Shown in pieces: positions 1 to 30,206 of a stretch of 64,000 bases of DNA. The stretch is from IMG/VR virus record IMGVR_UViG_3300029813_000075, positions 9,554 through 73,553 of that record. One strand, given 5' to 3'. Under the pieces are notes generated by a model that was not told the origin of the DNA, searched no databases, and was given only the letters and a program-made list of their open reading frames with translations. The first letter of the stretch is position 1, and the number at the start of each line of letters is the position of its first letter. Both the position numbers and the translations under genes were made by a program. This DNA is from a virus.

Positions 1-419
1 TCCTTTGCAATCTGAGACGCTGTATCAACCATGATAATCCACTTTTTCAGTTCATTAGCAGGTCGATTGGCTACCTTGAGCAATTCAGAATGCAAGAACT
101 CAGCAAGTGCTATCTCTTGACCTGATTCAAAGCCTTGTTCATCGTACCATTTCCCAACCTCTCTGATCTTGTCCATCTGTTCTTCATTTGGGATATAGAC
201 GGTTCGCTTCTTAACATCAGGATAAGTGTCAAGTATTGCCTTCAAATTCTCAAACGGCTCAGTAAGAGCAATGAACAGTTTCAGGTCTGGAAACATCTGC
301 GCAATCCTTACTCCAAAGGTAGTCTTCCCAGCACCAACATTTCCATAGATTGCAAGTTTGATCTTCTCATCCATGTCCAATACTGGAGCTGCCTTAAGCA
401 TAGGTGATGTATCACTCAT
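1..419 (-). CDS. P-loop ATPase, Sak4/AAA_24 (RecA-fold)-like; 3' end runs off the window; absent from ORF track
   Basis: Manual translation from ATG at 419: MSDTSPMLKAAPVLDMDEKIKLAIYGNVGAGKTT...WIIMVDTASQIAK, open to base 1. Walker A GNVGAGKT and Walker B IIMVD. Confidence 0.75.
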   Translation of the reverse strand, partial: MSDTSPMLKAAPVLDMDEKIKLAIYGNVGAGKTTFGVRIAQMFPDLKLFIALTEPFENLKAILDTYPDVKKRTVYIPNEEQMDKIREVGKWYDEQGFESGQEIALAEFLHSELLKVANRPANELKKWIIMVDTASQIAK

Positions 420-5200: not shown

Positions 5201-5875
5201 GTGACATGGTATAGATCTGACCTCACTATCGGGGTTGAATCAGACAAGAGAATCATGATATGTATATGCCCGCCATACCCCCCCAAGGGATCTCATGATT
5301 GGCTTGCATTCTATTATCACCTTGATGCACTGCACCTCAATGAGTCAGTCAGATATCTTGGTGATCAACTCTCAAAGACAAGCGCCAAAATAGCATTCTA
5401 TCAGGCCATAGGTCGAGCAAAAGACCCTGTTGTACGAGAGAGATCGGTTGTCTATTGTTGGGGCATCTCTGGTGGTCGAACCAGAATTGAAAGACGTGGC
5501 TCACAGACCGTAATCGAGATGATGGACTTCCAAGACAATGTACCAACACCTTATGTGTTCACAACCTCTCATAGAGATGCCAGAAGTGACAACATAATCA
5601 AAATAGCAAAAACTTGGCTAAAGTCTGGAGTCATTATAGATCCTGTCATGGTTAGAATGGTAGGTCATGTGCGTGAGAGAGGGAAACTTAGCATCTCTCA
5701 AATAGGGAGAATAATGCACATGCCCATCAGCAGACTTGAGAAACATATGACCGCTGATAACCTGCCCATATTCAAATATCTTGGAGTTGAGGTATTTGAA
5801 GAATTTTCTCCCAAATCAACTATCAAAAAAAGGTGGATGTTAAGATATGTCGGAGATGGTATTAGTAGGACATGA
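2282..5875 (+). CDS. Primase-helicase fusion: AEP (PriS) + PriL-CTD-like Fe-S domain + XPD/DinG-like SF2 helicase + C-terminal HTH
   Basis: AEP motifs LDFDID, ISGSGVH, D..R..YS.N; PriL-like PPC...GC.KL...C..C..YPL; SF2 motifs VVVPT, CAY..DVVFITYSKL, LLDEVSH, ITDAT, QAIGR. Walker A reads TRAGLT. True start probably a little downstream of 2282. Confidence 0.8.
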   Translation: MLRHPPNNIIVLNRQPSTSNSWLCCGLATKSIFKKIGRINYDTIKGADAYTLARHGSDRPGPWFQMVEGIIPYRPFHRTTTGHDHTYFILDFDIDILDPRPHLQHNPLLLRDVKIRIGTKFVKSWLDQHPDYQFFAKISGSGVHLIQRYESRIDPQRMQPVVKHLFPQCDHAPTFPKDTKEQPHLCDETCAGWHYPFNYNEDEKEWNPNLKQWTKVLKVAGMTVRINVDLKMFERIHMIRWTYSKNMKLPDRFNFAIPITNWDPDWILKHMYQQNLQILSYSIPSFQFEGLLLPEAEIYRLYTRQKDANYEKSDWYFVEVPDVDDDLTDLQKYTIEKIDGLLSADETVVPPCVSAWYSRCKKGKIYWGRYPWIKWLANKGYTPEEIALVIRFKVNDAVDNSDNNKHILLEQLPQVYGSRYKPYLMMGCAKLQFHGEPTSMDIKIADEEMCKTCRRTYPLQNYPDKTLAGEKDVGFEKINKQCIDILDSFGSNNVVVRKATRAGLTTTMIPVAKALGKKLLVVVPTNRIGRETFVKAVAISKEQFNVEVHGAMFAANKNACLVLTILNKGLNEKRRTDPDPAWSNPLAWNALRYHSKPVCANCKYRTEEFPVPILNSGIPVPMIDSEITMYLNGTRNSEGSCAYITLYKQIKHLDVVFITYSKLFALFSTDSDDAYHFREELLECFDVILLDEVSHLTNHSALSLHLLRRSTPLPSDPQSLKHTEYSKNILLALEDEINQMLDYRDNSTSQQIETFVRKFVTFYEPLLDDPITTQKTQRVDNFLESGDRMRIMENFSGYHELIERAAIDHNISLHNIEGVLFLLNEPQWMLSSIPTKFHPVDITLITEPATRHVKRFVREFDRMYNKQVIITDATMPYVNMPDFFQINFENYEVGDPRGTNKTQLVIADSRNLNIIDLFFNKERSGPLQTDLAGYIKRIAEAHDPKNIMIVAANKATAALIRHFMRDDKIPRMQVTWYRSDLTIGVESDKRIMICICPPYPPKGSHDWLAFYYHLDALHLNESVRYLGDQLSKTSAKIAFYQAIGRAKDPVVRERSVVYCWGISGGRTRIERRGSQTVIEMMDFQDNVPTPYVFTTSHRDARSDNIIKIAKTWLKSGVIIDPVMVRMVGHVRERGKLSISQIGRIMHMPISRLEKHMTADNLPIFKYLGVEVFEEFSPKSTIKKRWMLRYVGDGISRT

Positions 5876-8513
5876 ATATAATCCAAAGACAGACAATCCA
5901 ATCTACTGGTTCATTGACCTAGACAAACAAGTCATAGTGAAGCACTACATTCCAAAGTCTGATTCGGATTCATGTTTCAAACAAAAGGGTCTCACTGAAG
6001 TAGAGATCAGAAGCACAATTGAAGCCAAGGGTGGTAAAGATATCATCAAAGGCATTGATTGGATAACTCAGTACGATGTGTTGAGCAAACAGGAAATAAC
6101 AGTTGCCAGAGTGAGGCTCAAGTCAGCCAAACTTGTGGGCAAGTACAGACTCGAGACTTCTAATGAAGCCAACATCAAGCGCCCATATCGACACTCGTTT
6201 GACAAAACTTGGCTATATGGTCTAAATTACGACTCAAAATTTAAGAGAATCATCACACCAATTAATACGAAATACGAAAAAATGCTCGAAGGCCATGATA
6301 AATTGATACGAGATCGTATGTTACAGTGGACATTCACACCTCTTCCTAAAATCAAAAGAATGGCCCTTGACATTGAGACCCTATCACATGGCAAAGTGAA
6401 GCCCGATGTGAAAGAGGCACAAGAGCCTGTAATCAGTTGCGCCTTTGCCTATTCAGATAACCAGCCTGGAGAAGTGATTGTACTTAGTGCCAATGCAAGA
6501 GGACTGAAATATGAGGCCAAGTCAATGCCCATGCTCACCGAATGGATAAAGGGGGGTCTCTTGAAGGTCATAATAGTCCACAGTGAACATGAACTTTTAG
6601 AACATGTGTTCCAAAGAATCAGAAAACCTGGATATCCTCTCATCTCTACATTCTACGGCCTTGGATTTGATATGCCATATCTGAGAAATAGAGCACTTGC
6701 ACTTGGATTCCCTGAACATGAGATACCAATCAAGGGATACTTACCAAAGTTCTCGCGTCATGAATGGACTATTGAAATCGAGAACAAGATCCATCTTGAT
6801 CTCAATGTACATCTCAATCTATCCGTTATCAAAAATTATGTCCACAAAAACAAATATCTTGAAACTTCATTGGACAAGGTATCTCATGCACTGATTGACA
6901 TGGGGAAATACGAAAGTGACACTCCAATCAGTGAAATGCCTCTTAGTGAACTGGTGTGGTATAACTTCTGGGATGCATACCTCACTCAGAGATTGACTGA
7001 ATTTAACAATGAGATTGTGCTCAAAATCATCTTTCTGTTCATGCGTATTGGCAGACAGTCATTCAAAGATGCAGCTCACAGAGCAATTAGCAGTAAAATC
7101 ATTAATCTGCTCTACGGCTACATGATTGAGAACAATATTCTAATACCAACACGCGAAGATCTCAGGATCTTTGGTACATTGGAATCAGAGTCACGAACAA
7201 ACAAGTCATTCGAGGGTGCAAAAATCCTTGCTACCATCATGGGTGTACATATTGAAACTGACGTTGTGGACTTTTCAAGCTTGTATCCTTCACAAAACGA
7301 CAACTACAACATATCCTTTGAGACCATGAACTGCGGTCATGAAGAGTGTAAAAATGCAATCCATAATCAGATTCCAGAATTAGACCATTATTCCTGCATT
7401 AAGTATAGAGGTATCATGCCCAAGTTGATAGGCTTAATCAAGGATATTCGACTCAAGATCTTCAAGCCTCTTGCCAAAGACCCTGAAATGTCAGCAGTTG
7501 AACAGGCACTCAAGGTCTACATTGTTGCTGCCTTTGGAGTCACAGGTGATAAGAAGTTCAACCTATACTGTCCACCTGCAGGCGAATCAACCACAGCACT
7601 AGGTAGGTACGCCCTTGATCGTCTGCAAGAGAAGGCCGAGTCATATCCTGGAGTGACAGTTATCTTTGGTGATACTGATTCAGTAGGTCTAGTGGGTGCC
7701 ACTCCTGAGATCATCAAGGAACTTGAAGAGTGGTCTCAACGAGTGCTAAACATCGAACTGACACATGAATATCATGCCCTAATCTTTGTCATAGCGGCCT
7801 CTAAATCCAAGAAAGATGAAGGTCTAAAAAAGAACTACTTCTATGTTGAGGAAGGCACCTACAAAGTAGTGGTCAAGGGTCTCGCAGGTAAGAAACGACA
7901 AACACCACCAATCATATCTCAATGCTTCTGGGACTGTCTCAATGGCATTGCTAACGCATTGAAAGACATTGGTGAGGGCATTCACTCACTTCCTAAAGAG
8001 GTAATTGTTGCTGGCGCACGAGAGATAGTAATTCAAATCGTGCGCGACTATTGGGTCAGGATATGGAACCGTAAGGGAACCATCAAGGACTATAGATACA
8101 GCGTGCAAAAGACAAAGACATTTGCTGAATACACAGCATCTACACCACAACACATCAAAGCTGCACTATCTCTTGCCAAATGGATAAAGTCAACTGCCGG
8201 AGATGCATACAGACATGTGCCACCCGAAGTATTGGTTCCCTACGGATCTTACATTGAGTTCGTCAAATCGGCAGCCAGTGACAAGAGAAAGACTCCCAAA
8301 GAACTCACATCAATCAAGAAACATGGCATTAAGATCAATCCAATGCCCATTGAGATGGCTACCATAGAAGATGTTTGTCCTGAGATATATCATTCATCCC
8401 TGCTTTCAACAATGGAACAGATCATGATCCCTCTTGGCATCGAGGAAAAGGATGTAGTCATTCACATGAACGATCCTTTTGGTAGCCAAACATCATTGGA
8501 ACAGTTCACTTAG
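5847..8513 (+). CDS. polB: Family B DNA polymerase, archaeal PolB1-like, with 3'-5' exonuclease and C-terminal PIP box
   Basis: ExoI LDIET, ExoII GFDMPYL, ExoIII YNFWDA; motif A DFSSLYPS, motif B QALK....AFG, motif C FGDTDS, KKNY; PolB1-type ETMNCGHEEC...HYSC insert; ends QTSLEQFT. Confidence 0.97.
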   Translation: MSEMVLVGHEYNPKTDNPIYWFIDLDKQVIVKHYIPKSDSDSCFKQKGLTEVEIRSTIEAKGGKDIIKGIDWITQYDVLSKQEITVARVRLKSAKLVGKYRLETSNEANIKRPYRHSFDKTWLYGLNYDSKFKRIITPINTKYEKMLEGHDKLIRDRMLQWTFTPLPKIKRMALDIETLSHGKVKPDVKEAQEPVISCAFAYSDNQPGEVIVLSANARGLKYEAKSMPMLTEWIKGGLLKVIIVHSEHELLEHVFQRIRKPGYPLISTFYGLGFDMPYLRNRALALGFPEHEIPIKGYLPKFSRHEWTIEIENKIHLDLNVHLNLSVIKNYVHKNKYLETSLDKVSHALIDMGKYESDTPISEMPLSELVWYNFWDAYLTQRLTEFNNEIVLKIIFLFMRIGRQSFKDAAHRAISSKIINLLYGYMIENNILIPTREDLRIFGTLESESRTNKSFEGAKILATIMGVHIETDVVDFSSLYPSQNDNYNISFETMNCGHEECKNAIHNQIPELDHYSCIKYRGIMPKLIGLIKDIRLKIFKPLAKDPEMSAVEQALKVYIVAAFGVTGDKKFNLYCPPAGESTTALGRYALDRLQEKAESYPGVTVIFGDTDSVGLVGATPEIIKELEEWSQRVLNIELTHEYHALIFVIAASKSKKDEGLKKNYFYVEEGTYKVVVKGLAGKKRQTPPIISQCFWDCLNGIANALKDIGEGIHSLPKEVIVAGAREIVIQIVRDYWVRIWNRKGTIKDYRYSVQKTKTFAEYTASTPQHIKAALSLAKWIKSTAGDAYRHVPPEVLVPYGSYIEFVKSAASDKRKTPKELTSIKKHGIKINPMPIEMATIEDVCPEIYHSSLLSTMEQIMIPLGIEEKDVVIHMNDPFGSQTSLEQFT

Positions 8514-8554
8514 AAGAAGGCGGGTTCCCTTTGGCTGGTTCCAAGCACATTTAC

Positions 8555-8768
8555 TCGGAGCCGACTCCGACACCTCAGGGATCCCATTGGTGGAGAGAGC
8601 CGTACGAACTCTCTCCGTTGTGTTTTTGGGCATTTGAAAGGAGGGTGCCTGGAGAAAGTTAGACACCCTCTTGGTGGAATGTCGAGATGGAGCAGTGGTG
8701 GAGTTTGGCAACAATGAGCGAAAGAATGTCGGAAGACGACAAAAAAACGCTCCACTGCATCCAATCTC
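8555..8768. ncRNA. Candidate structured RNA or ssDNA element with four stem-loops; strand unresolved
   Basis: Stems 8555-8570, 8592-8616, 8641-8670 and a nested stem 8684-8768 in a gap with no credible ORF. Confidence 0.45.
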
Positions 8769-8816
8769 TGACCCTATTATATCGTAATAAACTAATAAGT
8801 TCAACGGTTTTGCTCA

Positions 8817-9236
8817 TTATATTCTCGCATTTACTAAATATTGGGGATATTTGGCTCGAATAATAGCAACCATGTCCTTGACTCGATGATTGGCAGTCGC
8901 TTCTTTCAAGGACTGAATCTTCTCCATGATTTGTACATCCAAATCTTGTTGTTCTAAAAGATCTCTTCCTGAGTCGGCCAATTCAAAGAGATGGATATTA
9001 CCCGCCCTATAATGTTTCACATGGCCTTGGTCAATCAGAGAGTTGAATTGTTCTGCAACTACAGTGGAGTAAGGGCCAAACTGATAGGGGAAAAATTTGA
9101 AGTCGGCCTTCTCTTTGGCTATCTCTTTCGCAATCAAGAACAGTTGATGCACAACTTTGGTCTTGCCCTTAACGGGATCGCCTTGGAGCAGAGCCAAGAT
9201 ATAGGATTGGACTGTCATATACATCACCCATTGCAA
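8817..9236 (-). CDS. YwgA/DUF4065 (Panacea/SocA-like) winged-helix protein
   Basis: KGKTK...LFLI, FKFFPYQFGPYS signature, LIDQGHV...FELADSG. Confidence 0.65.
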   Translation of the reverse strand: MQWVMYMTVQSYILALLQGDPVKGKTKVVHQLFLIAKEIAKEKADFKFFPYQFGPYSTVVAEQFNSLIDQGHVKHYRAGNIHLFELADSGRDLLEQQDLDVQIMEKIQSLKEATANHRVKDMVAIIRAKYPQYLVNARI

Positions 9237-9982
9237 AAGTCTGAGAGCTTTGCCTGGTCGTGCAACGGAAATTCAATGCCTAGCCTTCGCGCAAGATTTA
9301 CTGATCGTAGCCACGTCATTGGTTCCTTTTTTCTCATACCAGGAAAGACACAAAATACAGGACATATGTTACACCCTGTACTCTGGATTCCGCCAAAGCC
9401 ATGTTCATCCAGAATCATGTCGACATCCCTATCCGAGCAGTCACGGAGAGGATAGTAATACATCCGACTGTTACGCTTGTGAACTCGAATGAGTGTATCC
9501 TGATTACGTAGTTCGGCCATCCGAAATCTTCTCATCTTCGCCCCATCAGAACCCTTGAGACCAAGTACCAGCACCACATCATCATCGAGCAAATCTATGT
9601 AATTGTCCATTGGCTTCTTCTTCAGCACATGACAACAATAGAAGTAATTCTTGTAAAATTTCCCTGTATCCTTCTTCTTCTTCAAAACCCGGGGGATCTG
9701 TTTGAATGACTCCTGAAGTATGTCTCTGATTGGCCTGTCACCATCATATTTCGTAGTCACAAGTTCATAGCCTGTCAACTCTTGAAGTCGGTGCAGAACA
9801 TCTTTGGCTCCACCTCTATTTAGACCAGTATCATTGAATGCCATGACTACATCCTTAATGTCAACATTCCAAGCTTCAAGCACCATAGCTGTTGAGTCAC
9901 GACCACCACTTGCCAAAATCACCACCTTGCGATTGGTTGGTAATTGGCTATAGTCGGGTCTATGAACAACCATTCCTCTCAA
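9224..9982 (-). CDS. PAPS-reductase-family (PP-loop) protein with PIP-like C-terminus
   Basis: ASGGRDS PP-loop, NDTG, CCHVLKKKP, LGLKGSDG..R, YPL.D, TGCNICP; ends QAKLSDFCNG. Confidence 0.88.
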   Translation of the reverse strand: MRGMVVHRPDYSQLPTNRKVVILASGGRDSTAMVLEAWNVDIKDVVMAFNDTGLNRGGAKDVLHRLQELTGYELVTTKYDGDRPIRDILQESFKQIPRVLKKKKDTGKFYKNYFYCCHVLKKKPMDNYIDLLDDDVVLVLGLKGSDGAKMRRFRMAELRNQDTLIRVHKRNSRMYYYPLRDCSDRDVDMILDEHGFGGIQSTGCNICPVFCVFPGMRKKEPMTWLRSVNLARRLGIEFPLHDQAKLSDFCNG

Positions 9983-10341
9983 TCTTCTTTAACAGTTGTA
10001 GGCTTAGAGTCAGATAACAGTTTGGTGAGCACGTCACCAGAGATCTCAAAGGAACCTGTTTCGAGCACAAGTTTAAGCTTTCTCTCAAACTCTTTCAGCT
10101 TTTCAATGCCATTATGTTGTGTCACAAGCAAAAATTCTGTTGTCTCAAAAGATTCTTGCAACAGATTGATCTCCTTCCATATCTGAACAGATGAAGATTC
10201 AAGTGTTTGGATTCTCTTCTCCTGCCCGAGTGCTGCTGATCCTTCAGTCATATTAGCCGCAGTGCGAAGATCTTTCATCTCATGTTCCATCTCGGCAATC
10301 CGTTTCCAAGGCCACAATTTCTTCCAAAAGCGCAAATCCAT
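9979..10341 (-). CDS. Hypothetical coiled-coil protein
   Basis: 120 aa, overlaps the next gene by 4 nt, heptad pattern. Confidence 0.6.
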   Translation of the reverse strand: MDLRFWKKLWPWKRIAEMEHEMKDLRTAANMTEGSAALGQEKRIQTLESSSVQIWKEINLLQESFETTEFLLVTQHNGIEKLKEFERKLKLVLETGSFEISGDVLTKLLSDSKPTTVKED

Positions 10342-10395
10342 TTTGATTCACTCAATTCTTGACACCGAAATATTATACCGATTGACTTATAATAT

Positions 10396-10410
10396 TTACG
10401 GGACTCGTAA
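10396..10410. promoter_or_regulatory. Palindromic site TTACG-N5-CGTAA, copy 2
   Basis: TTACG-ggact-CGTAA between divergent ORFs 10341(-) and 10419(+), next to TTATAATA. Confidence 0.65.
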
Positions 10411-10418
10411 TAACTACC

Positions 10419-10643
10419 ATGCCAACTCCCAAAGACCTCATTAGGGACATTGACAGACTTCTTGCTGATGCAATGTCACCACTCACATTCATGAGACATG
10501 TTCTAAGTGAAGGTTCCCACACTGGAAGCATAGAAATAAACCCAGACCAATGGGATACGATGATTACCAGTTCAATTCGCAAGCTTGAAGAAATGCGCGA
10601 CAGAGTGAAACGCTATGCCAAAGAAAGAAAGAAAGTGGCTTGA
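10419..10643 (+). CDS. Hypothetical protein
   Basis: 74 aa, first gene of the plus-strand operon. Confidence 0.6.
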   Translation: MPTPKDLIRDIDRLLADAMSPLTFMRHVLSEGSHTGSIEINPDQWDTMITSSIRKLEEMRDRVKRYAKERKKVA

Positions 10644-10797
10644 CTACCAGTGCTGGTCAATCTGCTTCATTTGTCTCTTTGTAGCACTAGCATTCATATC
10701 TTGGGCAATACAAGGTATTAATAGCGTCACAGGTTACTTATTCTTCGGAATGGCATGTCTAGTATTCCTGATCTGGTACAAACTCACTTTCAGGTGA
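10615..10797 (+). CDS. Small membrane protein, 2 predicted TM helices
   Basis: Two hydrophobic stretches; tiles within the operon (start may be slightly downstream). Confidence 0.55.
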   Translation: MPKKERKWLDYQCWSICFICLFVALAFISWAIQGINSVTGYLFFGMACLVFLIWYKLTFR

Positions 10798-10803
10798 CAA
10801 CAA

Positions 10804-10869
10804 TGGTCAGTCGGTCTGCGCTCTCCCAGGCGACACACTTGATGCTTTGTGTGTCTGAACGACTGACCA
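10804..10869. other. Nested inverted-repeat element
   Basis: TGGTCAGTCG...CGACTGACCA (10 bp perfect) enclosing GACACAC...GTGTGTC (7 bp perfect). Confidence 0.6.
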
Positions 10870-10884
10870 CCTTATGGTGATCAC

Positions 10885-11166
10885 ATGACAACAGAAGAAA
10901 CAGAAGCTGGCAACACAATTATTGAAGCTATGATGGCCGATGGTATGTCCAAACAGGATATCTCAGAATCTTTTGATCTAAGACGCAAAGGTCATGACAT
11001 ACTGATTGCATTTTTGAATGACGATGAAAATGATGATTCACTAAAAATGATGATATCATGGCAACCAATGACCGAGAAAGAAAGAGCCGATGAAAAGTTG
11101 CATGAAGAGTTGTACGGTAATTGGCAAGAAGTGCTGAAGTCAAATAGAGAGGGAACCCTACCATGA
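10885..11166 (+). CDS. Hypothetical acidic protein
   Basis: 93 aa, GGTGA RBS upstream, ATGA overlap with the methyltransferase. Confidence 0.65.
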   Translation: MTTEETEAGNTIIEAMMADGMSKQDISESFDLRRKGHDILIAFLNDDENDDSLKMMISWQPMTEKERADEKLHEELYGNWQEVLKSNREGTLP

Positions 11167-12890
11167 CAGAAATACCATCCTACCAAGAAGCCATTGCTAA
11201 GCCCGACAAAATACTCGAGTTTCAAGCGACTGCCGGACTCAAGTTCGGTTCCTGGAGCATGTTCTTCAATGACGACTCAGTCTCTCATCCTGCAAAGATG
11301 AACTTGAGAATGTTAGAATGGATCATTGAGAACTACAGCAAATCAGGCGATCTTATCATGGACATGTTTGCAGGCACCGGATCTACGCTAATTATGGCAT
11401 CCAGAAAGGGAAGAGATGCAATTGGCGTTGAGCTTGAACAACACTTCATTGATACCATGATTGTTCCTAACGTCAAAGCTTCACAGTCACAGACTTTGCT
11501 GTCGGGAGAGCTAGGGAAAATTATGATTGTGAAAGGTGACTCGAGGCGACTCGATCTAATCATTCCTCAGGCAATTGATGCCATTGTTACTTCCCCACCT
11601 TATGCTGGCACCAAGGCATTCGCTGACAAACAATGGATGATTGACAACATACCTGAGATCGAACAGAGAATCCGAGAAGGCAAAACAAAGGGCAACCCAA
11701 GATCACCAAAAGCCGAAATCAAGCACTTAGAAAAAATCAAAGATACAGAACATCCAGATAGCATTGACAACATTGACAACTATGGTCAGGTTGACACAAT
11801 TGTCAGCAGCCCACCTTACTCCGAAGCACTCAGCGTCAAAGCAGGTGGCGGAAGTAAAGACGTTCTTGAAGGCAAGGGAATAAAAGGTCGAGGTAAGTCC
11901 AGCGTACCCGTTCCGTATAGTGAGGGAGAAGATAACATTGGCAACCTAAAACATGGTCAGGTCGATGCTGTATTCAGCAGCCCCCCTTATGGTAAAATGG
12001 AAATGTCCAAGAAATTCAAGTCTGAAGCAGAGAAACTGGCATGGGCAGAGAAACAGTCCCTCATCAATGGCAGGTCAGTAAAGGCTGTACTTGCCAACCT
12101 GGATCGTTGGAAAGATTGGGGCGAAAACACTGACAACTTGGGCAACATGGAACATGGCAATATCGACACTGTGATATCAAGCCCACCTTACGGTGCCATG
12201 CTCAGTAAAAGGTCTGGTGGAGATGATCGGCCTGAAGCCATGCGTAGAGTAATGGAAGAAAATTGGGGATACTCACCAAAAATGGTCGAAAAGATACTAG
12301 CGGGTGAGACCAACGTTGGTGCATTCGTCACAAGACGTGGCTACAACTACTCCGGTGACGATGCCAACATAGGCAACCTGCCTACTGGTGAGATTGACTC
12401 TGTGATATCAAGCCCGCCATATGAAGGGTCTCTTGAAAATCGTGGTGGCACTCAACAGAAGTTCAAGCAAGAGAAAGGCACTCCTGCACCATATTCCAAA
12501 GACCCTGAAAACATTGGCAACAAAACTGGCGAGACCTATCTTGAGGCCATGTTCAAAGTGTACTTGGGTTGTTGGCTGGTGATGAAAGAAGGCGGCACAA
12601 TGGTGATTGTGGTCAAGAACTTTGTCAGGAAGGGCAAGCCTGTCAGACTGGATCTTGATACCATCAAACTCTGTGAGGCCGCTGGATTCAAGCTTGCTGA
12701 TCGATGGTGGTTCAGATTGCCTTTCAGATCCTTCTGGACAATCCAGCACACCAAGAAGTGGGCAATTGCACATCCTGACTCAAAGGAGCATCCATATGCC
12801 ATTTTTGAAGATGTTCTTGTCTTTGAGAAGGTGATTTCAAGCAAGACTTTACTTTTACTCCCCGAGATATGGAGTGATCAGATTGCCTGA
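11163..12890 (+). CDS. Amino (N4-C/N6-A) DNA methyltransferase with five tandem SPPY modules
   Basis: HPAKM, motif I DMFAGTGST, GVELE; five D.(V/I).(T/S)SPPY motifs; single C-terminal MKEGGTMVIVVKN...EDVLVFEK. Confidence 0.9.
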   Translation: MTEIPSYQEAIAKPDKILEFQATAGLKFGSWSMFFNDDSVSHPAKMNLRMLEWIIENYSKSGDLIMDMFAGTGSTLIMASRKGRDAIGVELEQHFIDTMIVPNVKASQSQTLLSGELGKIMIVKGDSRRLDLIIPQAIDAIVTSPPYAGTKAFADKQWMIDNIPEIEQRIREGKTKGNPRSPKAEIKHLEKIKDTEHPDSIDNIDNYGQVDTIVSSPPYSEALSVKAGGGSKDVLEGKGIKGRGKSSVPVPYSEGEDNIGNLKHGQVDAVFSSPPYGKMEMSKKFKSEAEKLAWAEKQSLINGRSVKAVLANLDRWKDWGENTDNLGNMEHGNIDTVISSPPYGAMLSKRSGGDDRPEAMRRVMEENWGYSPKMVEKILAGETNVGAFVTRRGYNYSGDDANIGNLPTGEIDSVISSPPYEGSLENRGGTQQKFKQEKGTPAPYSKDPENIGNKTGETYLEAMFKVYLGCWLVMKEGGTMVIVVKNFVRKGKPVRLDLDTIKLCEAAGFKLADRWWFRLPFRSFWTIQHTKKWAIAHPDSKEHPYAIFEDVLVFEKVISSKTLLLLPEIWSDQIA

Positions 12891-12895
12891 CCATT

Positions 12896-13153
12896 TTGAC
12901 TGCCCTAAATGCGGGCACCCTTGTGGAGAAGAGACAATATACTCCTGCTCCAGACTGCAATGCCCAAAATGTGGGACTGTCTTTGAACCCGAGGAAGACT
13001 GATAGAATGACAGATGAATGTAAGGGAGATCAGACCAGCGCCACTCACCTGCCAGGAATTTACCGCGATGGCGTAATCAGATGCATATACTGTGGGCTTG
13101 TTCAATCTCCCTACTACAAAATCCATACTAAGAGTGATACAGATGCCAGTTGA
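12896..13153 (+). CDS. Hypothetical Cys-containing protein
   Basis: 85 aa with CIYCG; tiles within the operon. Confidence 0.5.
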   Translation: MTALNAGTLVEKRQYTPAPDCNAQNVGLSLNPRKTDRMTDECKGDQTSATHLPGIYRDGVIRCIYCGLVQSPYYKIHTKSDTDAS

Positions 13154-13361
13154 CAAATACGAAGCCATGTATAAAGATCTCAAAGATCTAATTGAAGATG
13201 TTGAATATCTGTACGAAACTGGAATGAATGATACCCCAAATCCTGTCCCTAGCAGCTGTCAGAGTCATTACACATTCTTCAAGGCTATGGTTAAGGCCAC
13301 ATATAACAAAGCCAAAAGACTGAGAACGAAATGGATAGGAAATAGTAACAATGCCAATTGA
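13143..13361 (+). CDS. Hypothetical protein
   Basis: ATG at 13143 (track extends to 13092); helical; overlaps the next gene. Confidence 0.55.
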   Translation: MPVDKYEAMYKDLKDLIEDVEYLYETGMNDTPNPVPSSCQSHYTFFKAMVKATYNKAKRLRTKWIGNSNNAN

Positions 13362-14094
13362 AGCAACAGTCAAGAATCAATTGGTACTTAGTCTCTTCCC
13401 AGGCATAGATATCTTCGGACATGCCTTTGAACTCGAGGGATTCTGTGTTGTCCAAGGTCCAGAGATTGAATTTGGGCGTGACATTAAGACCTGGAACATT
13501 GTTCCTGGCTTTTTCACTGGCCTCATAGGTGGCCCACCATGTCAAATGTATTCCCCCGCCGCCCAAGGTAGTAGCCCTGCTGAAGATATGATACCCGAGT
13601 TTGTGTATGCTGTTGTTATTGCACAACCACAATGGCTTGTCATGGAAAACGTGCGACAGGCACCAGTGCCACAGATCCCTGGCTACGCCATTAGATCAAC
13701 ACTGATAGATGCCTGGCACTATGGAGCTAGACAAAAGAGGATCAGAAGATTCACCTTTGGTTACAAGACCCCAGACGGTGAACTGAGAACATTCCCATTT
13801 GTGGAAGAACCACCACTAAACATCAGAGATCGAGACCCCGATCCGTTCCCCACTGTGACAGCAACTGAGCACAAGTTCAGCAAGAAGCACGATGAACCAA
13901 GAAAGGCAAGTCGTAAGATCGGTAGAACACTCCAAGTGGAAGAGATCATGTGCCTCATGGGTGTACCTGATTGGCCTGAGATGCTTGACATAAAGCGCAG
14001 ATCACAATCAAAGATGTTTGGCAATGGTGTCGAACTTCATGCTGGCAGAGTTGTAGCTCGAGCCATCAAGAGGGGGCTAGAATACTTACCATGA
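13351..14094 (+). CDS. C5-cytosine DNA methyltransferase
   Basis: LSLFPG (motif I variant), GGPPCQ, MENV, QKRIRR, FGNGV. Confidence 0.9.
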   Translation: MPIEATVKNQLVLSLFPGIDIFGHAFELEGFCVVQGPEIEFGRDIKTWNIVPGFFTGLIGGPPCQMYSPAAQGSSPAEDMIPEFVYAVVIAQPQWLVMENVRQAPVPQIPGYAIRSTLIDAWHYGARQKRIRRFTFGYKTPDGELRTFPFVEEPPLNIRDRDPDPFPTVTATEHKFSKKHDEPRKASRKIGRTLQVEEIMCLMGVPDWPEMLDIKRRSQSKMFGNGVELHAGRVVARAIKRGLEYLP

Positions 14095-14195
14095 TAGACT
14101 CAGAGTTTCTATTCAGTGGGTTCGTGATTGGATTCTTTCTCTTGACTCTTCTAGCAATTGCTGTCTGTGGCATTCTATGGTGGATAGAACGATGA
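14091..14195 (+). CDS. 34-aa single-TM peptide, not in track
   Basis: MIDSEFLFSGFVIGFFLLTLLAIAVCGILWWIER; ATGA overlaps with both neighbours. Confidence 0.6.
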   Translation: MIDSEFLFSGFVIGFFLLTLLAIAVCGILWWIER

Positions 14196-14803
14196 AATGT
14201 ATTGACCTCTTCTCTGGACTTGGAGGCTTCTCAGAAGCATTCATAAATCGTGGACATGATGTACTCAGAATAGACAATGATAATCGTTTCAAAGATATAC
14301 CTTACACGACTATCAAAGATGTTGGAACCCTCACATCAACCGAACTCCAAGGTGCATACATCATATTGGCATCCCCACCATGTACTCATTTTTCTGTTGC
14401 TTCTGTTTACAGGCATTGGCCGAAGGGTGTACCTACTAAAGCAACATTAAAACAAATAAATCTAGTAAAATACACCATCAAAATAATCAAAGAGGCCAAA
14501 CCAAAATATTGGATTATGGAGAACCCCATAGGCAAACTAAGAAAAGTGATAGGAACCCCCCCACTCACTGTATATATGTGTGCATGGGGGAAAAAGGCAA
14601 AGAAGCCAACTGATCTCTGGGGGCAACTCCCACCAATAGATATCAAAATGCCGATGAAATGGCAAAAAGCACCAAGAGGCTCTAAGTTAGGGGTTCAAGG
14701 TTATCATGATCCTGCTGCTGCTGCCATGATTCCTTATGATTTCTCATTGGCTGTATGCCTAGCAGCAGAAGGCAACAGCCCACAACAAACTCTCGAAATC
14801 TGA
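14192..14803 (+). CDS. Short C5-cytosine DNA methyltransferase-like protein
   Basis: IDLFSGLGGFS, ASPPCTHFS, IMENP; likely start ATG 14192; ends QQTLEI. Confidence 0.85.
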   Translation: MKCIDLFSGLGGFSEAFINRGHDVLRIDNDNRFKDIPYTTIKDVGTLTSTELQGAYIILASPPCTHFSVASVYRHWPKGVPTKATLKQINLVKYTIKIIKEAKPKYWIMENPIGKLRKVIGTPPLTVYMCAWGKKAKKPTDLWGQLPPIDIKMPMKWQKAPRGSKLGVQGYHDPAAAAMIPYDFSLAVCLAAEGNSPQQTLEI

Positions 14804-23417: not shown

Positions 23418-23876
23418 TCAGTAACTCCCCTCAGGAGCGATAATCAGACTCATGCTCGTGAATCCGTCTTCAAACTTCACAATGTCGTCAAAGGATCCTG
23501 AGAACCGTGAGAAGTAGTACTTGTCAATAACCTCCTTGACTGTCTTCACACTCAGATCAGTATCGATGGCTATGTAGAAACTACCATCACGCTTATCCTT
23601 CAACATCTTACCAATGATTGCCTTTGGTTCAAGCACAGACTTGAGCTTGTCTAAGATTCTCTGCAGGTCGAAGGCCTTCAACTGCTCGAAGTACCATTCA
23701 ATCTTGTCCTTGAACTGGTAATTCTCGCCATGTTCATCATAGAACTCGTGTGCCCATATCTCTATGTCACCCTCGTCTATGTTCAGCAGCTGCATGAGGT
23801 CTTCCTCAATCGCTGCCCATTCTTGTTCAACGTCACTGTACTTTGCTCTAAATTCCATTATTTTCCTTAACATCAT
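23418..23876 (-). CDS. Acidic hypothetical protein
   Basis: 152 aa; ATGA overlap with PCNA. Confidence 0.65.
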   Translation of the reverse strand: MMLRKIMEFRAKYSDVEQEWAAIEEDLMQLLNIDEGDIEIWAHEFYDEHGENYQFKDKIEWYFEQLKAFDLQRILDKLKSVLEPKAIIGKMLKDKRDGSFYIAIDTDLSVKTVKEVIDKYYFSRFSGSFDDIVKFEDGFTSMSLIIAPEGSY

Positions 23877-24697
23877 AATTTGGCTCTCCCCAAATTTATA
23901 GGCCGCCTCTCAACTCTTGGAGCTAATATCATCTCCACCTTGATTCCGTGAGAGTCAACCATCGAGAGTTTTATTGGCTTGTCTTTAGCAAACTCCAGAA
24001 ATACACCATCGTTACCCAGAATGAACTTGCGAAACAGGTGTAGATATTCCGCATCGTATCTAGTCGCAGCCAAGTCCTTCCAGTAGGCAAGCTCATGCAC
24101 ACAATCATCTGGATCTGCATAGAACTCGGCATTGAACTCACCAAAGTCACCCTCACCTTCAAACACGATCTTGTTCTTCTCTTCAACTGTCAGCGTCAAG
24201 TGCCGCGTTACTTTCATTGCAGACTTGAGAATGCTCTTGAAGGTCTTGCCCTTGATTGTCATTCCCACAGTGAAAGGCAAGCTTGGCTTCTTTGTCCTAT
24301 CATCCTTCGGAATCAATAATGCCAATGACTCTTGGTGCCTGAAGTCACTGTGACCTATCACCATGAACCGCCCACCGCCGCCTGTGTTGTCAAGCTGAAA
24401 CTCAAGCCTCTGCTTGGCTGTGACTGTTGCCCGCTTCAACTCTCCCGCGTTAATGGTTACTACGGTCTCCTTGTCTTTGCTGTCATACTCGTACTCGGCC
24501 AAGGCCGAGCTTGGAACATTCCAGTGTATCATGCACGCCTTATTATCGTCTAGCTGCCTCAGCATAATACCACCATTGCCCAACACCAGTTCCATCTCTG
24601 TCAACAAGGCTTCGCTTCCATCCATGATGGACTTCAACCTCTTGATCACGTCAGCGTCACACGTCACTGCTCTCATCATCTTCGCACAATCCTCCAT
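23873..24697 (-). CDS. pcn: DNA sliding clamp PCNA
   Basis: GIMLRQLD....MIHW.VP..AL.EY, F.GEGD.G, RYDAEYL, LEF..DKPIKL, ILAPRVE; two-domain PCNA length. Confidence 0.93.
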   Translation of the reverse strand: MEDCAKMMRAVTCDADVIKRLKSIMDGSEALLTEMELVLGNGGIMLRQLDDNKACMIHWNVPSSALAEYEYDSKDKETVVTINAGELKRATVTAKQRLEFQLDNTGGGGRFMVIGHSDFRHQESLALLIPKDDRTKKPSLPFTVGMTIKGKTFKSILKSAMKVTRHLTLTVEEKNKIVFEGEGDFGEFNAEFYADPDDCVHELAYWKDLAATRYDAEYLHLFRKFILGNDGVFLEFAKDKPIKLSMVDSHGIKVEMILAPRVERRPINLGRAKL

Positions 24698-26463: not shown

Positions 26464-27278
26464 TTTACTCTGTCAGCCTCCTCCACCTTGGGCCACTTGG
26501 CAATGGAATCCTTGGTGTCATAGATGATCACGAATCCATCCTTCTTCATGTCCTTATAGATCTTCGACATGAAATCACTGGCCGAATCTCTGATTATCTG
26601 TCTCATGCACTCAGGCACAATGCTCCAGCTATCACAGCCTCTATCATATAGCAGCTCCATGCAGTCAAGACACACAACGCGCCGCACATGAAGAGATTCC
26701 TGCTGCCAACTGTGGTTTTGCCACTCACCACCCTTAGCCATTCTCAAGTGGTAGGTCTTTGAAGTCTCTCCGAAGATTGAAGACCACTCAGACTCGGCCT
26801 CGAGATTTTGCGCCCACGCGAACTTAATGTACAGCCTCTTGTGCTCACATTGCTCATCCTTGTCAGTGTCATTCTTTATCGGTGGATGATAGAAGTCGCT
26901 GTGTTTGAGCTTGGTGCCGCACCAAGGACAGTTGGGCCACTTCTCAGATCGTACTTGCTTGCCGATATCAGCGTCACACTTAGGACACAAGTTGTATCCT
27001 TGGTAGAACGAAGATCGTACAGGACAATTGGGGTGGATGCATGCACACTCAGACTCCCAGAGGCAGTCGAAGCAGTGAGTCTTGCCCGCTGCTATCCGAT
27101 TTCTGTACACTCTGTTCTCAGGGTGGTCCTTCATGTACTGCGTGTCAATGGTGAAGTCCTTACAGTAGTCGTTGGTGTTGGCAAAGTTCTCAGGAAGCCC
27201 CCAGAACTCTGCACCCTTTCTAGTATCCTTAGTTGGGTTCTGCTTGTTTTTCTTGTCGCTCACGGTTGCCAACCTCAC
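26460..27278 (-). CDS. Multi-Cys zinc-binding protein
   Basis: CFDC, C.H..C, CPKC, CPWC, CLDC. Confidence 0.7.
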   Translation of the reverse strand: MRLATVSDKKNKQNPTKDTRKGAEFWGLPENFANTNDYCKDFTIDTQYMKDHPENRVYRNRIAAGKTHCFDCLWESECACIHPNCPVRSSFYQGYNLCPKCDADIGKQVRSEKWPNCPWCGTKLKHSDFYHPPIKNDTDKDEQCEHKRLYIKFAWAQNLEAESEWSSIFGETSKTYHLRMAKGGEWQNHSWQQESLHVRRVVCLDCMELLYDRGCDSWSIVPECMRQIIRDSASDFMSKIYKDMKKDGFVIIYDTKDSIAKWPKVEEADRVK

Positions 27279-27644
27279 AGTTTCAGGTTGTATTCACGAG
27301 GGTAACGGTTGCTTATAAGACCTTCCAATGCAAGTAAGCTTCCCATCGAGTCCAAATTATATATATAATATGGGTTCGAGGGGAAAGATACTTGCAAACG
27401 CATGCTGCCCAAGACCAACCCACCCCAATTACTGTCCACAATCACTCAAGCACCCCTATCCATCCCCACTCCCCCCACAACCACGCTCATGCTTAAAGAC
27501 CACTAGAAGGTGAATTGAAGCCATCTGGGAGTGCAAATGAGTACTTAGATTGTCTGGGTGTCTTTACTGGTGGTGTTTGTGTGTTTCAGTGAAAAGAAAG
27601 TTGGGTCTGAGGCCTTGTTGGTCTCAGATCCCGCATTAGCCTAC

Positions 27645-30189: not shown

Positions 30190-30206
30190 TAGGGGGATGA
30201 TGAATT

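What the first reader, a model, noticed from the sequence alone, without database searches (positions are those of the whole stretch)
8484..14803. PIP-box-like tails on PolB and on DNA-modification enzymes: a PCNA-tethered modification system
Seen: PolB ends QTSLEQFT, the PAPS-reductase-like protein ends QAKLSDFCNG, and the short C5 MTase ends QQTLEI. The virus encodes its own PCNA (23873-24697). The first two fit QxxLxxF with the same loss of the second aromatic; the third is weaker. Known: C-terminal PIP boxes dock enzymes on PCNA. Inferred: the PAPS-reductase-family protein acts on nascent DNA at the fork rather than in sulfate assimilation.
Basis: partly seen in the sequence, partly recalled or inferred. 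Interest (0 to 1): 0.72.

Follow-up and report, generated by a model that had tools for sequence, protein, structure and literature searches.

The report
Clamp-docking tails on viral polymerase and sulfur enzyme
In this probable Asgard-archaeal tailed virus, the DNA polymerase ends in an ordinary sliding-clamp (PCNA) docking peptide, a DndC/APS-reductase-like iron-sulfur enzyme ends in a conserved peptide that is both its reactive-cysteine arm and a plausible second docking peptide, and the methylase "tail" is chance.

Summary
All three tails and the viral PCNA are in the sequence as described, but they are not equivalent.

1. **PolB (QTSLEQFT-COOH):** a genuine archaeal C-terminal PIP box. 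41 of 44 homologues keep L-x-x-[FYW] at the extreme end. This is ordinary.

2. **PAPS-reductase-like enzyme (QAKLSDFCNG-COOH):** the motif is conserved. In the 20 closest homologues Q243 is invariant and F249 and C250 are at least 90% conserved.
   - The Cys is the family's terminal cysteine, in an APS-reductase layout: PP-loop, CC-X86-CXXC, then a C-terminal Cys. Part of the conservation is therefore enzymatic.
   - PIP-type motifs are 5.7-fold enriched in this family's tails. They also occur after the Cys, or without it.
   - An unrelated PAPS_reduct in a complete 93-kb virus ends QRKITEFL-COOH, beside a Dam-like methylase ending QNTLERFF-COOH.
   - A complex prediction with the viral PCNA gave only weak support (0.42; best control 0.00).
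   - I put clamp docking at about 50%.

3. **Short C5 methylase (QQTLEI):** it lacks motif positions 7-8 and is at chance level (8 of 96 genes have Q..[LIMV] in their last 8 residues).

"PCNA-tethered modification system" is partly supported: plausible for one enzyme and unproven. Earlier notes of this scan reported PIP-like tails on Asgard restriction methylases in other genomes, but not on PAPS-reductase-like enzymes.

The parts
5847..8513 (+). Family B DNA polymerase (888 aa)
   Evidence: Pfam DNA_pol_B E 1.8e-23 and DNA_pol_B_exo1 E 6.4e-13; phrog_262 E 1.3e-33.
8487..8510 (+). PolB C-terminal PIP box QTSLEQFT (Thr at position 8)
   Evidence: 41 of 44 homologues have [LIMV]..[FYW] at the extreme C-terminus. 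Position 7 is aromatic in 41 of 41, and position 1 is Q in only 18 of 41. One is a cellular Hodarchaeota PolB ending GQVNLMEFFG.
9224..9982 (-). PAPS-reductase-superfamily PP-loop / Fe-S enzyme. 252 aa from the TTG start; the true start is probably Met4 at 9973.
   Evidence: PF01507 E 8.2e-5; phrog_424 E 4.7e-25; weak DndC E 6.8e-5 and SspD E 3.8e-4. AF2 pLDDT 94. Nearest structures are APS/PAPS reductases at Z 14-16, then TtuA/NcsA. The Atlas record starts at residue 4.
9893..9910 (-). PP-loop S25-G-G-R-D-S30
   Evidence: S25, G26, G27, D29 and S30 are invariant in 54 homologues.
9632..9637 (-). Cys116-Cys117 (CC of the CC-X86-CXXC motif)
   Evidence: Invariant in 54 homologues. The motif -CC-X~80-CXXC- ligates the [4Fe-4S] cluster of APS reductases (PMC1175818).
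9362..9373 (-). Cys204-x-x-Cys207
   Evidence: Invariant. The structural alignment of the model to P. aeruginosa APS reductase 2goy_B runs over model 7..207 and chain 40..231.
9227..9256 (-). C-terminal tail Q243-A-K-L246-S-D-F249-C250-N-G: terminal-Cys arm overlapping a PIP-type motif
   Evidence: In 54 homologues: Q 50, L/I 46, aromatic 30, C 49. In the 20 closest, Q is invariant and F and C are at least 90%. AF2 pLDDT is 80 for 241-250, with a short helix at 246-249.
9979..10341 (-). 120-aa ORF directly upstream of the enzyme, same strand, no family hit
8817..9236 (-). 139-aa ORF overlapping the enzyme's stop by 13 nt (probably co-translated)
   Evidence: phrog_14939 E 2.9e-9; PADLOC candidate PDC-M19A E 6.2e-12.
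11163..12890 (+). N6/N4 DNA methyltransferase (575 aa). Ends ...PEIWSDQIA, with no PIP-type tail.
   Evidence: PF01555 E 8.2e-27; tail.
13351..14094 (+). C5 DNA methyltransferase (247 aa). Ends ...RGLEYLP, with no PIP-type tail.
   Evidence: PF00145 E 5.5e-19; tail.
14177..14803 (+). Short C5 DNA methyltransferase (208 aa)
   Evidence: PF00145 E 6.3e-13; phrog_757 E 7.9e-29.
14783..14800 (+). Tail QQTLEI: not a PIP box (no positions 7-8)
23873..24697 (-). Virus-encoded PCNA (274 aa) with a 10-residue extension after LAPRVER
   Evidence: Full-length matches to archaeal PCNA structures at E 3e-12; NF002219 E 7.5e-26; alignment A2.

Best explanation
The three tails are three different things.

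1. **PolB.** It carries a standard archaeal C-terminal PIP box that docks the polymerase on the viral or host PCNA. That the motif is conserved is shown. That it docks is inferred from textbook knowledge of archaeal PolB.

2. **The PAPS-reductase-like protein.**
   - It is not a sulfate-assimilation enzyme. It is an adenylating, [4Fe-4S]-type PP-loop enzyme built like DndC/SspD and APS reductase.
   - Its mobile C-terminal arm carries the family's terminal cysteine, a probable nucleophile or persulfide carrier.
   - In this subfamily the arm reads Q-x-x-[LI]-x-x-F-C. My best reading is that the arm also serves as a PCNA hook, bringing a sulfur-inserting or other adenylate-dependent DNA-modifying enzyme to freshly replicated viral DNA, next to the methyltransferases encoded beside it.
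   - The cysteine architecture and the motif conservation are shown. Both the chemistry and the PCNA docking are inferred.

3. **The short C5 methylase.** The ending QQTLEI is a chance resemblance.
For: **PolB**
- PIP conservation in 41 of 44 homologues.
- PCNA identity.
- Archaeal PIP motifs sit at the very C-terminus (PMC6881253).

**Enzyme architecture**
- Invariant SGGxDS, C116-C117 and C204-x-x-C207, and near-invariant C250.
- This is the -CC-X~80-CXXC- plus essential C-terminal Cys layout of APS reductases (PMC1175818). There the Cys sits on a mobile lid (PMC8173546).
- Best structural matches are APS/PAPS reductases at Z 14-16.
- Weak DndC and SspD profile hits.

**DNA context**
- The gene or its homologues lie beside DNA methyltransferases in the window, L082, L085, L092 and L094. 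That is 5 of 8 loci.

**PIP reading of the enzyme's tail**
- Q243 is invariant and F249 is at least 90% conserved in the 20 closest homologues, down to 44% identity.
- In 121 family representatives, Q..[LIMV]..[FYW] is 5.7-fold enriched in the last 20 residues against the rest of the same proteins (Fisher 8e-6).
- One subfamily has FCG followed by a separate x-L-[DE]-[EK]-[FY]-[LI] tail. Some Cys-less members end in canonical motifs such as QEKLEAYI-COOH.
- None of 83 distinct tails of bacterial (pro)phage homologues has the motif.
- In the complete 93-kb virus G001, a PAPS_reduct protein ends QRKITEFL-COOH, a D12 adenine methylase ends QNTLERFF-COOH, and a 739-aa protein ends QKKITEWF-COOH. 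That is 3 exact-end canonical motifs against 0.065-0.087 expected.

**Complex prediction, full-length enzyme with the viral PCNA (weak support)**
- Score 0.42; best of 3 controls 0.00.
- The runs agree in at least 83% of contacts, and the partner's pLDDT is at least 81.
- The pass mark was reached by 58 of 80 solved complexes and 2 of 110 mismatched pairs. At 0.60 or under it was reached by only 7 of those 80 and by both mismatches.
- My own alignments were used, so these counts hold only roughly. PIP-PCNA complexes are solved, so the pass may reflect likeness to them.
- No interface was reported.
Against: - Position 8 is a near-invariant Cys (49 of 54) that corresponds to the catalytic tail Cys of sulfonucleotide reductases. 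The tail would therefore be conserved without any PCNA role.
- Across all 54 homologues the order of conservation is Q (50), C (49), L/I (46), aromatic (30), and 22 of 48 tails lack an aromatic at Q+6. This is the reverse of the PolB tails of the same lineage, where L and the aromatic are fixed and Q varies.
- One of two paralogues in a single virus (L082) reads QTELRLC, with no aromatic.
- AF2 places the tail with pLDDT 80 and a short helix, not as a floppy linker.
- The complex score falls in the band that the tool calls more often wrong than right unless the guess was likely beforehand. No interface was given, so I cannot say the tail is what touches PCNA.
- G001 encodes no PCNA or PolB and its host is unknown.
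- No PCNA was found on any other contig carrying a family member, though these are fragments.
- No DndD/SspC-type ATPase or cysteine desulfurase turned up among the roughly 35 window proteins I scanned.
Confidence: 0.5

Rival explanations
1. Catalytic arm only. The tail of the PAPS-reductase-like enzyme is the mobile lid that carries the reactive cysteine. Q243 and L246 are conserved because they pack on the enzyme when the lid closes. The likeness to a PIP box is coincidental, and the enzyme does not touch PCNA.
For: - The terminal Cys is near-invariant and homologous across subfamilies.
- The layout matches APS reductases, where the tail is a lid with the catalytic Cys.
- The aromatic at motif position 7 is missing in 22 of 48 tails, and the Q-to-C spacing varies from 5 to 8.
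- The tail pLDDT is 80 with a short helix.
- By count, one extra QxxLxxF tail among 96 genes is expected by chance.
Against: - It does not explain PIP-type motifs placed after the Cys, or present without it, in other subfamilies.
- It does not explain the 5.7-fold tail enrichment, the canonical QRKITEFL-COOH on an unrelated PAPS_reduct in G001, or the weak positive complex prediction with zero-scoring controls.
Confidence: 0.35
2. Auxiliary metabolic gene. The protein is a real assimilatory APS/PAPS reductase that boosts host sulfur assimilation, as the literature on Asgard and haloarchaeal viruses assumes. The tail is simply its catalytic end.
For: - CC-X86-CXXC plus a terminal Cys is the bacterial APS-reductase signature.
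- The top structural matches are APS/PAPS reductases.
- Medvedeva et al. read viral PAPS reductases of Asgard viruses this way (10.1101/2021.07.29.453957).
Against: - The defining tail motifs R(S/E/A)GR(W/F) and ECG(L/I)H (PMC8173546) are absent; the tail is ...ARRLGIEFPLHDQAKLSDFCNG.
- The PP-loop is the canonical ATP-pyrophosphatase form SGGRDS. From my own knowledge, this loop is degenerate in CysH-type reductases.
- No CysH NCBIfam model is hit. The best hit is a DndC-like model at E 9e-4.
- It is repeatedly linked to DNA methyltransferase genes and never, in the loci seen, to sulfur-assimilation genes.
Confidence: 0.1
3. All non-PolB tails are chance. Neither the enzyme's nor the methylase's tail has any function as a motif.
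For: 0.76 chance tails are expected per 96 genes. The methylase tail is clearly at background.
Against: The enzyme's tail is conserved down to 41-44% identity. Chance does not give that.
Confidence: 0.05

Closest known systems
C-terminal PIP box of archaeal family B DNA polymerases (e.g. Pyrococcus furiosus PolB-PCNA, PDB 3A2F, whose PCNA chain is the best PDB sequence match of the window's PCNA)
   Same: The motif lies at the extreme C-terminus. L at position 4 and an aromatic at position 7 are conserved across viral and cellular (Hodarchaeota) homologues.
   Different: Position 8 is Thr or Ala in this virus's clade instead of an aromatic or Leu. The clamp may be the virus's own divergent PCNA.
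Assimilatory APS reductase (CysH group with [4Fe-4S]; P. aeruginosa 2GOY, M. tuberculosis 7LHR)
   Same: - Same fold (Z 13.5-14.3).
- -CC-X~80-CXXC- cysteines.
- A cysteine at the end of a C-terminal tail.
   Different: - Canonical SGGxDS PP-loop.
- No R(S/E/A)GR(W/F) or ECG(L/I)H tail motifs.
- The tail instead reads QxxLxxFCxG.
- Gene neighbours are DNA methyltransferases.
DndC / SspD / BrxP, the PAPS-reductase-domain proteins of DNA phosphorothioation (PMC12914056)
   Same: A PAPS-reductase-superfamily PP-loop protein set among DNA-modification genes. Weak profile similarity: DndC E 6.8e-5, SspD E 3.8e-4.
   Different: - About half the size of DndC.
- Matches are partial and far below family level.
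- No DndD/SspC/BrxC-type ATPase, DndE or cysteine desulfurase was seen in the window.
- It is encoded by a virus, not by a defence island.
- No clamp-docking motif is known for DndC, SspD or BrxP (my own knowledge).
DNMT1 PIP box (eukaryotic maintenance methyltransferase docked on PCNA; listed among PIP clients in PMC6881253)
   Same: The concept is the same: a DNA-modifying enzyme coupled to the replication clamp through a PIP motif.
   Different: - DNMT1's motif is internal, in a long disordered region.
- The enzyme here is not a methyltransferase.
- Binding here is unproven.
TtuA / NcsA [4Fe-4S] tRNA thiolases
   Same: PP-loop adenylation domain with an Fe-S cluster. Structural Z 12.5-13.3 and weak sequence match over the PP-loop.
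   Different: Different cysteine ligand pattern, no zinc fingers, no terminal Cys arm, and an RNA substrate.

Membership tests
PIP box (Q-x-x-[LIMV]-x-x-[FYW]-[FYW]) - PolB tail | Q at position 1, aliphatic at 4, aromatic at 7 | tested here: met
   QTSLEQFT.
PIP box - PolB tail | Second aromatic (or Leu in archaea) at position 8 | tested here: not met
   Thr here. Close relatives have T or A. More distant homologues have F, L or W.
PIP box - PolB tail | Lies at the extreme C-terminus and is conserved in homologues | tested here: met
   41 of 44 homologues; position 7 is aromatic in 41 of 41. The archaeal C-terminal location is given in PMC6881253.
PIP box - PolB tail | Binds PCNA | not tested
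PIP box - PAPS-reductase-like tail | Q at 1, aliphatic at 4, aromatic at 7, near the C-terminus | tested here: met
   QAKLSDF, followed by CNG-COOH.
PIP box - PAPS-reductase-like tail | Hydrophobic or aromatic residue at position 8 | tested here: not met
   Cys250, near-invariant (49 of 54).
PIP box - PAPS-reductase-like tail | Key positions 4 and 7 conserved in homologues | tested here: inconclusive
   In the 20 closest homologues F249 is at least 90% conserved. Over all 54, L/I is 46 of 54 but the aromatic only 30 of 54, and 22 of 48 tails lack it.
PIP box - PAPS-reductase-like tail | Lies in a disordered, accessible tail | tested here: inconclusive
   AF2 pLDDT 80 (241-250) and 69 (251-252), with helix 246-249. 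In APS reductases the homologous tail is mobile.
PIP box - PAPS-reductase-like tail | Binds PCNA | tested here: inconclusive
   Weak support only: score 0.42, best control 0.00. At 0.60 or under the mark was reached by 7 of 80 solved complexes and by both of the 2 passing mismatches out of 110. No interface was reported.
PIP box - short C5 methylase tail | Aromatic residues at positions 7-8 | tested here: not met
   The protein ends at position 6 (QQTLEI). Q..[LIMV] occurs in the last 8 residues of 8 of 96 genes.
Sulfonucleotide (APS/PAPS) reductase, CysH | -CC-X~80-CXXC- and an essential Cys at the C-terminal end | tested here: met
   C116-C117, C204-x-x-C207 and C250.
Sulfonucleotide (APS/PAPS) reductase, CysH | Tail motifs R(S/E/A)GR(W/F) and ECG(L/I)H | tested here: not met
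   The tail is ...WLRSVNLARRLGIEFPLHDQAKLSDFCNG. The motifs are defined in PMC8173546.
Sulfonucleotide (APS/PAPS) reductase, CysH | Matches curated CysH family models | tested here: not met
   No CysH NCBIfam hit. PF01507 scores 23.1 bits against a cut-off of 22.5.
DndC / SspD (DNA phosphorothioation) | PP-loop SGGxDS in a PAPS-reductase-type domain | tested here: met
   SGGRDS is invariant.
DndC / SspD (DNA phosphorothioation) | Family-level profile match | tested here: not met
   PADLOC DndC E 6.8e-5 (20 bits, residues 111-192 only), SspD E 3.8e-4. NF005316 scores 18 bits against a cut-off of 536.
DndC / SspD (DNA phosphorothioation) | Partner P-loop ATPase (DndD/SspC/BrxC) and a cysteine desulfurase nearby | tested here: inconclusive
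   None among the roughly 35 window proteins scanned. Not every ORF was scanned, and a host IscS/SufS could serve.
PCNA (archaeal sliding clamp) | Full-length homology to PCNA over both domains | tested here: met
   PDB PCNAs at E 3e-12 over residues 19-263. NF002219 at E 7.5e-26 over 8-263, below its curated cut-off.

The most novel reading that the evidence does not exclude
Viruses of archaea hook their DNA-modification enzymes to the sliding clamp through C-terminal PIP boxes, so that nascent viral DNA is modified at the fork. This would include a DndC/APS-reductase-like Fe-S enzyme whose PIP box is merged with its reactive-cysteine arm, as well as Dam-like, N4 and C5 methyltransferases. 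The window's enzyme would then be the first clamp-tethered sulfur-inserting (or other adenylate-dependent) DNA-modifying enzyme, with PCNA binding possibly gating the catalytic arm.
Probability: 0.4. Interest if true: 0.75.

Novelty: new variant of a known kind. Interest (0 to 1): 0.55.

Why it matters
**Why the enzyme matters.** Viral "PAPS reductases" are routinely filed as auxiliary sulfur-metabolism genes, including in the first descriptions of Asgard viruses. This family combines four features:
- a canonical ATP-pyrophosphatase loop;
- APS-reductase-type Fe-S cysteines;
- a terminal cysteine arm without the sulfonucleotide-binding motifs;
- steady linkage to DNA methyltransferase genes.

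Together these argue for a DNA-directed chemistry instead.

**If the tail docks on PCNA.** This would be a prokaryote-side parallel to DNMT1-PCNA coupling, and the first PAPS-reductase-superfamily enzyme shown to ride the clamp. It would also give a simple sequence signature, a C-terminal PIP box, for picking out replication-coupled modification enzymes in uncultured archaeal viruses.

**How to test it.** Peptides and recombinant PCNA are enough.

**The ordinary parts.** The PolB result is ordinary. The methylase result is a useful negative.

Tried and rejected
**Searches that found no close relatives**
- tblastn of the enzyme against 50,697 phage records found nothing at E 1e-3, and only three bacterial-phage PAPS reductases at E up to 5.
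- IMG/VR and GTDB scans with the family alignment returned only bacterial-type relatives at about 25% identity, with other C-termini. I used these as a negative set.
- The first metagenome scan with the single protein found nothing.
- The second, with the close-family alignment, gave mostly contigs of 1-2 kb.

**PCNA co-occurrence could not be tested**
- No PCNA was detected on any other family-bearing contig. All of these are fragments, and every archaeal host has PCNA anyway.
- The genome search cannot reach the ENA/JGI records behind L082, L083 and L090.
- Two related viruses with PolB at 50-55% identity lack the enzyme next to PolB. One of them keeps two methylases there. The module is therefore accessory.
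- The 93%-PolB relative's contig ends just after PolB.

**Inconclusive or uninformative**
- Sequence search of the family profile against PDB chains did not align the tail to CysH.
- AF2 of a distant subfamily member (P0127) was meant to show whether its post-Cys tail is floppy. It gave pLDDT 75, then 50, which is inconclusive.
- G001's host could not be established:
  - no PCNA or PolB and no tRNAs;
  - almost no PHROG or Pfam hits;
  - singleton unnamed protein clusters;
  - an uninformative Atlas result for its 739-aa PIP-ended protein.
- I looked for beta-clamp motifs on bacterial homologues as a cross-domain parallel. Only one small clostridial group (QISIFD / QISLIS) and one QGKLF tail turned up, too few to argue from.

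**Considered and rejected**
- The N-terminal QLVLSLF of the 247-aa C5 methylase as a PIP or clamp motif. It is the methylase's motif I strand.
- A count of PIP-like tails on methylases next to family members gave 3-4 of 10, against a 20% loose background. This is not significant.

Full report
**What the window is.** It is 64 kb of a 76,135-bp IMG/VR viral record.
- It encodes a portal, an HK97-type capsid protein and a tail sheath, a family B polymerase and a PCNA.
- The closest named relatives of its PAPS-reductase-like protein come from Candidatus Thorarchaeota MAGs.
- PolB relatives include a Hodarchaeota cellular enzyme.
- I read it as a tailed virus of Asgard archaea. The host assignment rests only on these names.

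**Checking the observation.**
- The PCNA call is right even though Pfam and PHROGs are silent. phmmer against PDB chains gives full-length matches to archaeal PCNAs at E 3e-12, and NCBIfam sliding-clamp models match at E 7.5e-26.
- Among 96 greedy-called genes, only PolB and the PAPS-reductase-like protein carry Q..[LIMV]..[FYW] in their last 14 residues. The motif's frequency in the window's own proteins predicts 0.76 such tails, so the count alone proves nothing (P about 0.18).
- The weaker Q..[LIMV] in the last 8 residues is found in 8 of 96 genes.

**PolB.**
- Of 44 homologues found with the C-terminal half (93% down to 25% identity), 41 have [LIMV]-x-x-[FYW] at the very end. Position 7 is aromatic in all 41, position 4 is Leu in 34, and position 1 is Gln in only 18.
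- This is the known archaeal PolB PIP box. In archaea such motifs sit at the extreme C-terminus (PMC6881253).
- The Thr at position 8 is a peculiarity of this virus's immediate clade.
- This part is real and ordinary.

**The PAPS-reductase-like protein: what it is.**
- 53 homologues were found. Invariant residues are the PP-loop S25-G-G-x-D-S30, C116-C117 and C204-x-x-C207. Q243 and C250 are at least 90% conserved.
- AF2 gives a confident model (pLDDT 94). Its best structural neighbours are APS/PAPS reductases (4bwv Z 15.8, 2goy Z 14.3, 1sur Z 14.2), followed by other PP-loop enzymes, including the Fe-S tRNA thiolases TtuA and NcsA.
- The alignment to P. aeruginosa APS reductase spans model 7..207 and chain 40..231, ending at the model's CXXC.
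- Carroll et al. define bacterial APS reductases by -CC-X~80-CXXC- plus an essential cysteine at the C-terminal end (PMC1175818). Here the spacing is CC-X86-CXXC, and Cys250 is third from the end.
- That cysteine sits on a mobile tail which closes over the active site, within the motifs R(S/E/A)GR(W/F) and ECG(L/I)H (PMC8173546). Neither motif is present here.
- The PP-loop is the canonical ATP-pyrophosphatase form, as in DndC/SspD-type enzymes. No CysH model is hit, and the only defence-family hits are weak ones to DndC and SspD.
- I conclude that this is a new branch of the PAPS-reductase superfamily. It keeps the Fe-S cysteines and the Cys arm of APS reductases but probably adenylates a different substrate.
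- The substrate is probably DNA-related. The gene, or a homologue, lies beside DNA methyltransferase genes in the window, L082 (two paralogues flanking a C5 methylase, next to a Dam), L085, L092 and L094. That is 5 of 8 loci.
- PAPS-reductase-domain proteins are the sulfur-inserting component of all known DNA phosphorothioation systems (PMC12914056).
- The published reading of such genes in Asgard viruses as sulfur-assimilation helpers is therefore doubtful for this family.

**The PAPS-reductase-like protein: is the tail a PIP box?**

Against:
- The residue after Phe249 is the near-invariant Cys, so the tail is under enzymatic constraint anyway.
- Over all 54 sequences the conservation is Q 50, L/I 46, C 49, but aromatic only 30. 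The Q-to-C spacing varies from 5 to 8, and 22 of 48 tails have no aromatic at Q+6. This profile is the opposite of the PolB tails.
- AF2 gives the tail pLDDT 80 with a short helix.

For:
- In the window's own subfamily (20 sequences, down to 44% identity), Q243 is invariant and F249 is at least 90% conserved. Further metagenomic copies read QTHLMQFC, QTELREFC, QTLIRDYC, QLPLSIFC and the like.
- In a more distant subfamily the homologous Cys (FCG) is followed by a separate tail such as HTLDEFL, KSLDEFI, QSLEKFL or IELDQFF. Still more distant members have no tail Cys and carry canonical motifs, some at the very end and some up to about 12 residues from it: QEKLEAYI, QTSIKKFL, QKQLEPYL, QTQILKFI, QDSIESFI.
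- On 121 representatives at 50% identity, Q..[LIMV]..[FYW] is 5.7-fold more frequent in the last 20 residues than elsewhere in the same proteins (Fisher 8e-6). The sequences are related, so this overstates independence.
- None of 83 distinct tails of bacterial (pro)phage homologues has the motif. These belong to other subfamilies.
- The one complex job, full-length enzyme with the viral PCNA and both given as alignments, returned weak support:
  - Score 0.42, best of three controls 0.00.
  - Runs agree in at least 83% of contacts, and partner pLDDT is at least 81.
  - The mark was reached by 58 of 80 solved complexes and 2 of 110 mismatches. At 0.60 or under it was reached by only 7 of the 80 and by both mismatches.
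  - The counts hold only roughly because my own alignments were used. PIP-PCNA complexes are solved, so likeness may contribute.
  - No interface was reported.

**An independent case found on the way.** IMGVR_UViG_3300017963_000016 (G001) is a complete 93,471-bp virus with terminal repeats and 26.7% GC. I reached it through a distant homologue of the window's short C5 methylase.
- A PAPS_reduct protein of another subfamily (PF01507 E 8e-18) ends QRKITEFL-COOH.
- A D12-class adenine methylase ends QNTLERFF-COOH.
- A 739-aa protein of unknown family ends QKKITEWF-COOH.
- A C5 methylase ends KFNLMEFIQEE.
- Three proteins ending exactly in Q..[LIMV]..[FYW][FYWLIM] compare with 0.065-0.087 expected in its 188 genes.
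- It encodes no PCNA or PolB, and I could not establish its host.

Similar tails occur on N4 methylases of other archaeal viruses:
- In the PCNA-encoding haloarchaeal virus PhiCh1 the enzyme ends ...ETSLREFIEVGDTP, and in phiH ...ETNLTEFVEPSDAS.
- The homologue in Methanoculleus virus Blf4 ends ...YVVKSFLTEASP, and that on contig L092 ends ...QTRLEDHMEL.
- A mycobacteriophage homologue stops right after the catalytic domain.
- These are few cases and partly related, against a loose background of 20%.
- Earlier notes of this scan, which I did not check, report PIP-like tails on Asgard restriction methylases in other genomes.

**The short C5 methylase.**
- QQTLEI ends at motif position 6, so the two aromatic positions that enter the PCNA pocket do not exist.
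- A 49%-identical homologue ends GGQVQL, and three further relatives end differently.
- The other two methylases of the window end PEIWSDQIA and RGLEYLP.
- There is no methylase PIP box in this window.

**Verdict.**
- One tail is a textbook PIP box.
- One is a conserved dual-character tail: certainly the cysteine arm of a novel DndC/APS-reductase-like enzyme, and possibly also a clamp hook. I put that at about 50%.
- One is noise.
- The claim of a PCNA-tethered modification system is partly supported, plausible for one enzyme, and directly testable with peptides and recombinant PCNA.

Noticed in passing
L162-L167 (G001 = IMGVR_UViG_3300017963_000016): 26566-27351, 29992-32211, 39096-40298, 59889-60848: This is a complete 93-kb, 26.7% GC virus. 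A PAPS_reduct protein, a D12 adenine methylase and a 739-aa unknown protein each end exactly in a canonical PIP box (QRKITEFL, QNTLERFF, QKKITEWF). A C5 methylase ends KFNLMEFIQEE. Three exact-end motifs compare with 0.065-0.087 expected. It has no PCNA or PolB gene, and its host is unknown.
   Followed up: partly
L156:29709-31055 (PhiCh1), L157:326-1744 (phiH), L158:389-1582 (Blf4), L092:168-1517: N4/N6 methyltransferase homologues of four archaeal or archaeal-like viruses carry a short C-terminal extension with a PIP-like core (ETSLREFI, ETNLTEFV, YVVKSFL, QTRLEDHM). A mycobacteriophage homologue (L159) ends right after the catalytic domain.
   Followed up: partly
window 8817-10341 (- strand): The enzyme sits in a tight three-gene unit. 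A 120-aa ORF lies upstream, overlapping by 4 nt if the TTG start is used. A 139-aa ORF downstream overlaps the stop by 13 nt. The 139-aa protein matches phrog_14939 and the PADLOC defence candidate PDC-M19A (E 6.2e-12).
   Followed up: partly
L082 / L172 / L173 (Ga0315284_10002184 and Ga0315291_10001866): One viral contig carries two paralogues of the enzyme flanking a C5 methylase, with a Dam-type methylase upstream. One paralogue ends QTDLTQFCNG and the other QTELRLCSR.
   Followed up: partly
window 5847-8513; P0056, P0057, P0064: PolB relatives at 92% identity are 1216-1221 aa. One, P0056, has precomputed homing-endonuclease/LAGLIDADG hits (PF05204, PF14528). They therefore appear to contain an intein that the window's PolB lacks.
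   Followed up: no
window 23873-24697 (-): The viral PCNA escapes Pfam's PCNA models. It carries about 10 extra residues (RPINLGRAKL) after the usual LAPRVER end, and its close relatives share an extension.
   Followed up: no
window 13378-13398: The 247-aa C5 methylase starts ...KNQLVLSLFPG. This reads like both QxxLxxF and the bacterial clamp motif QLSLF, but it is the methylase's motif I strand and not a docking peptide.
   Followed up: yes
L115, L118, L044, L034: A small group of clostridial (pro)phage PAPS-reductase homologues ends in QISIFD or QISLIS, and another ends in QGKLF. These resemble the bacterial beta-clamp motif QL[SD]LF. Most bacterial homologues have no such tail.
   Followed up: partly
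Atlas result for window 9224-9982: Among structural look-alikes is an archaeal cluster (97% Archaea) in which a class-V aminotransferase (cysteine-desulfurase-type) domain is fused to a PAPS_reduct domain. This hints at sulfur-transfer chemistry in relatives.
   Followed up: no
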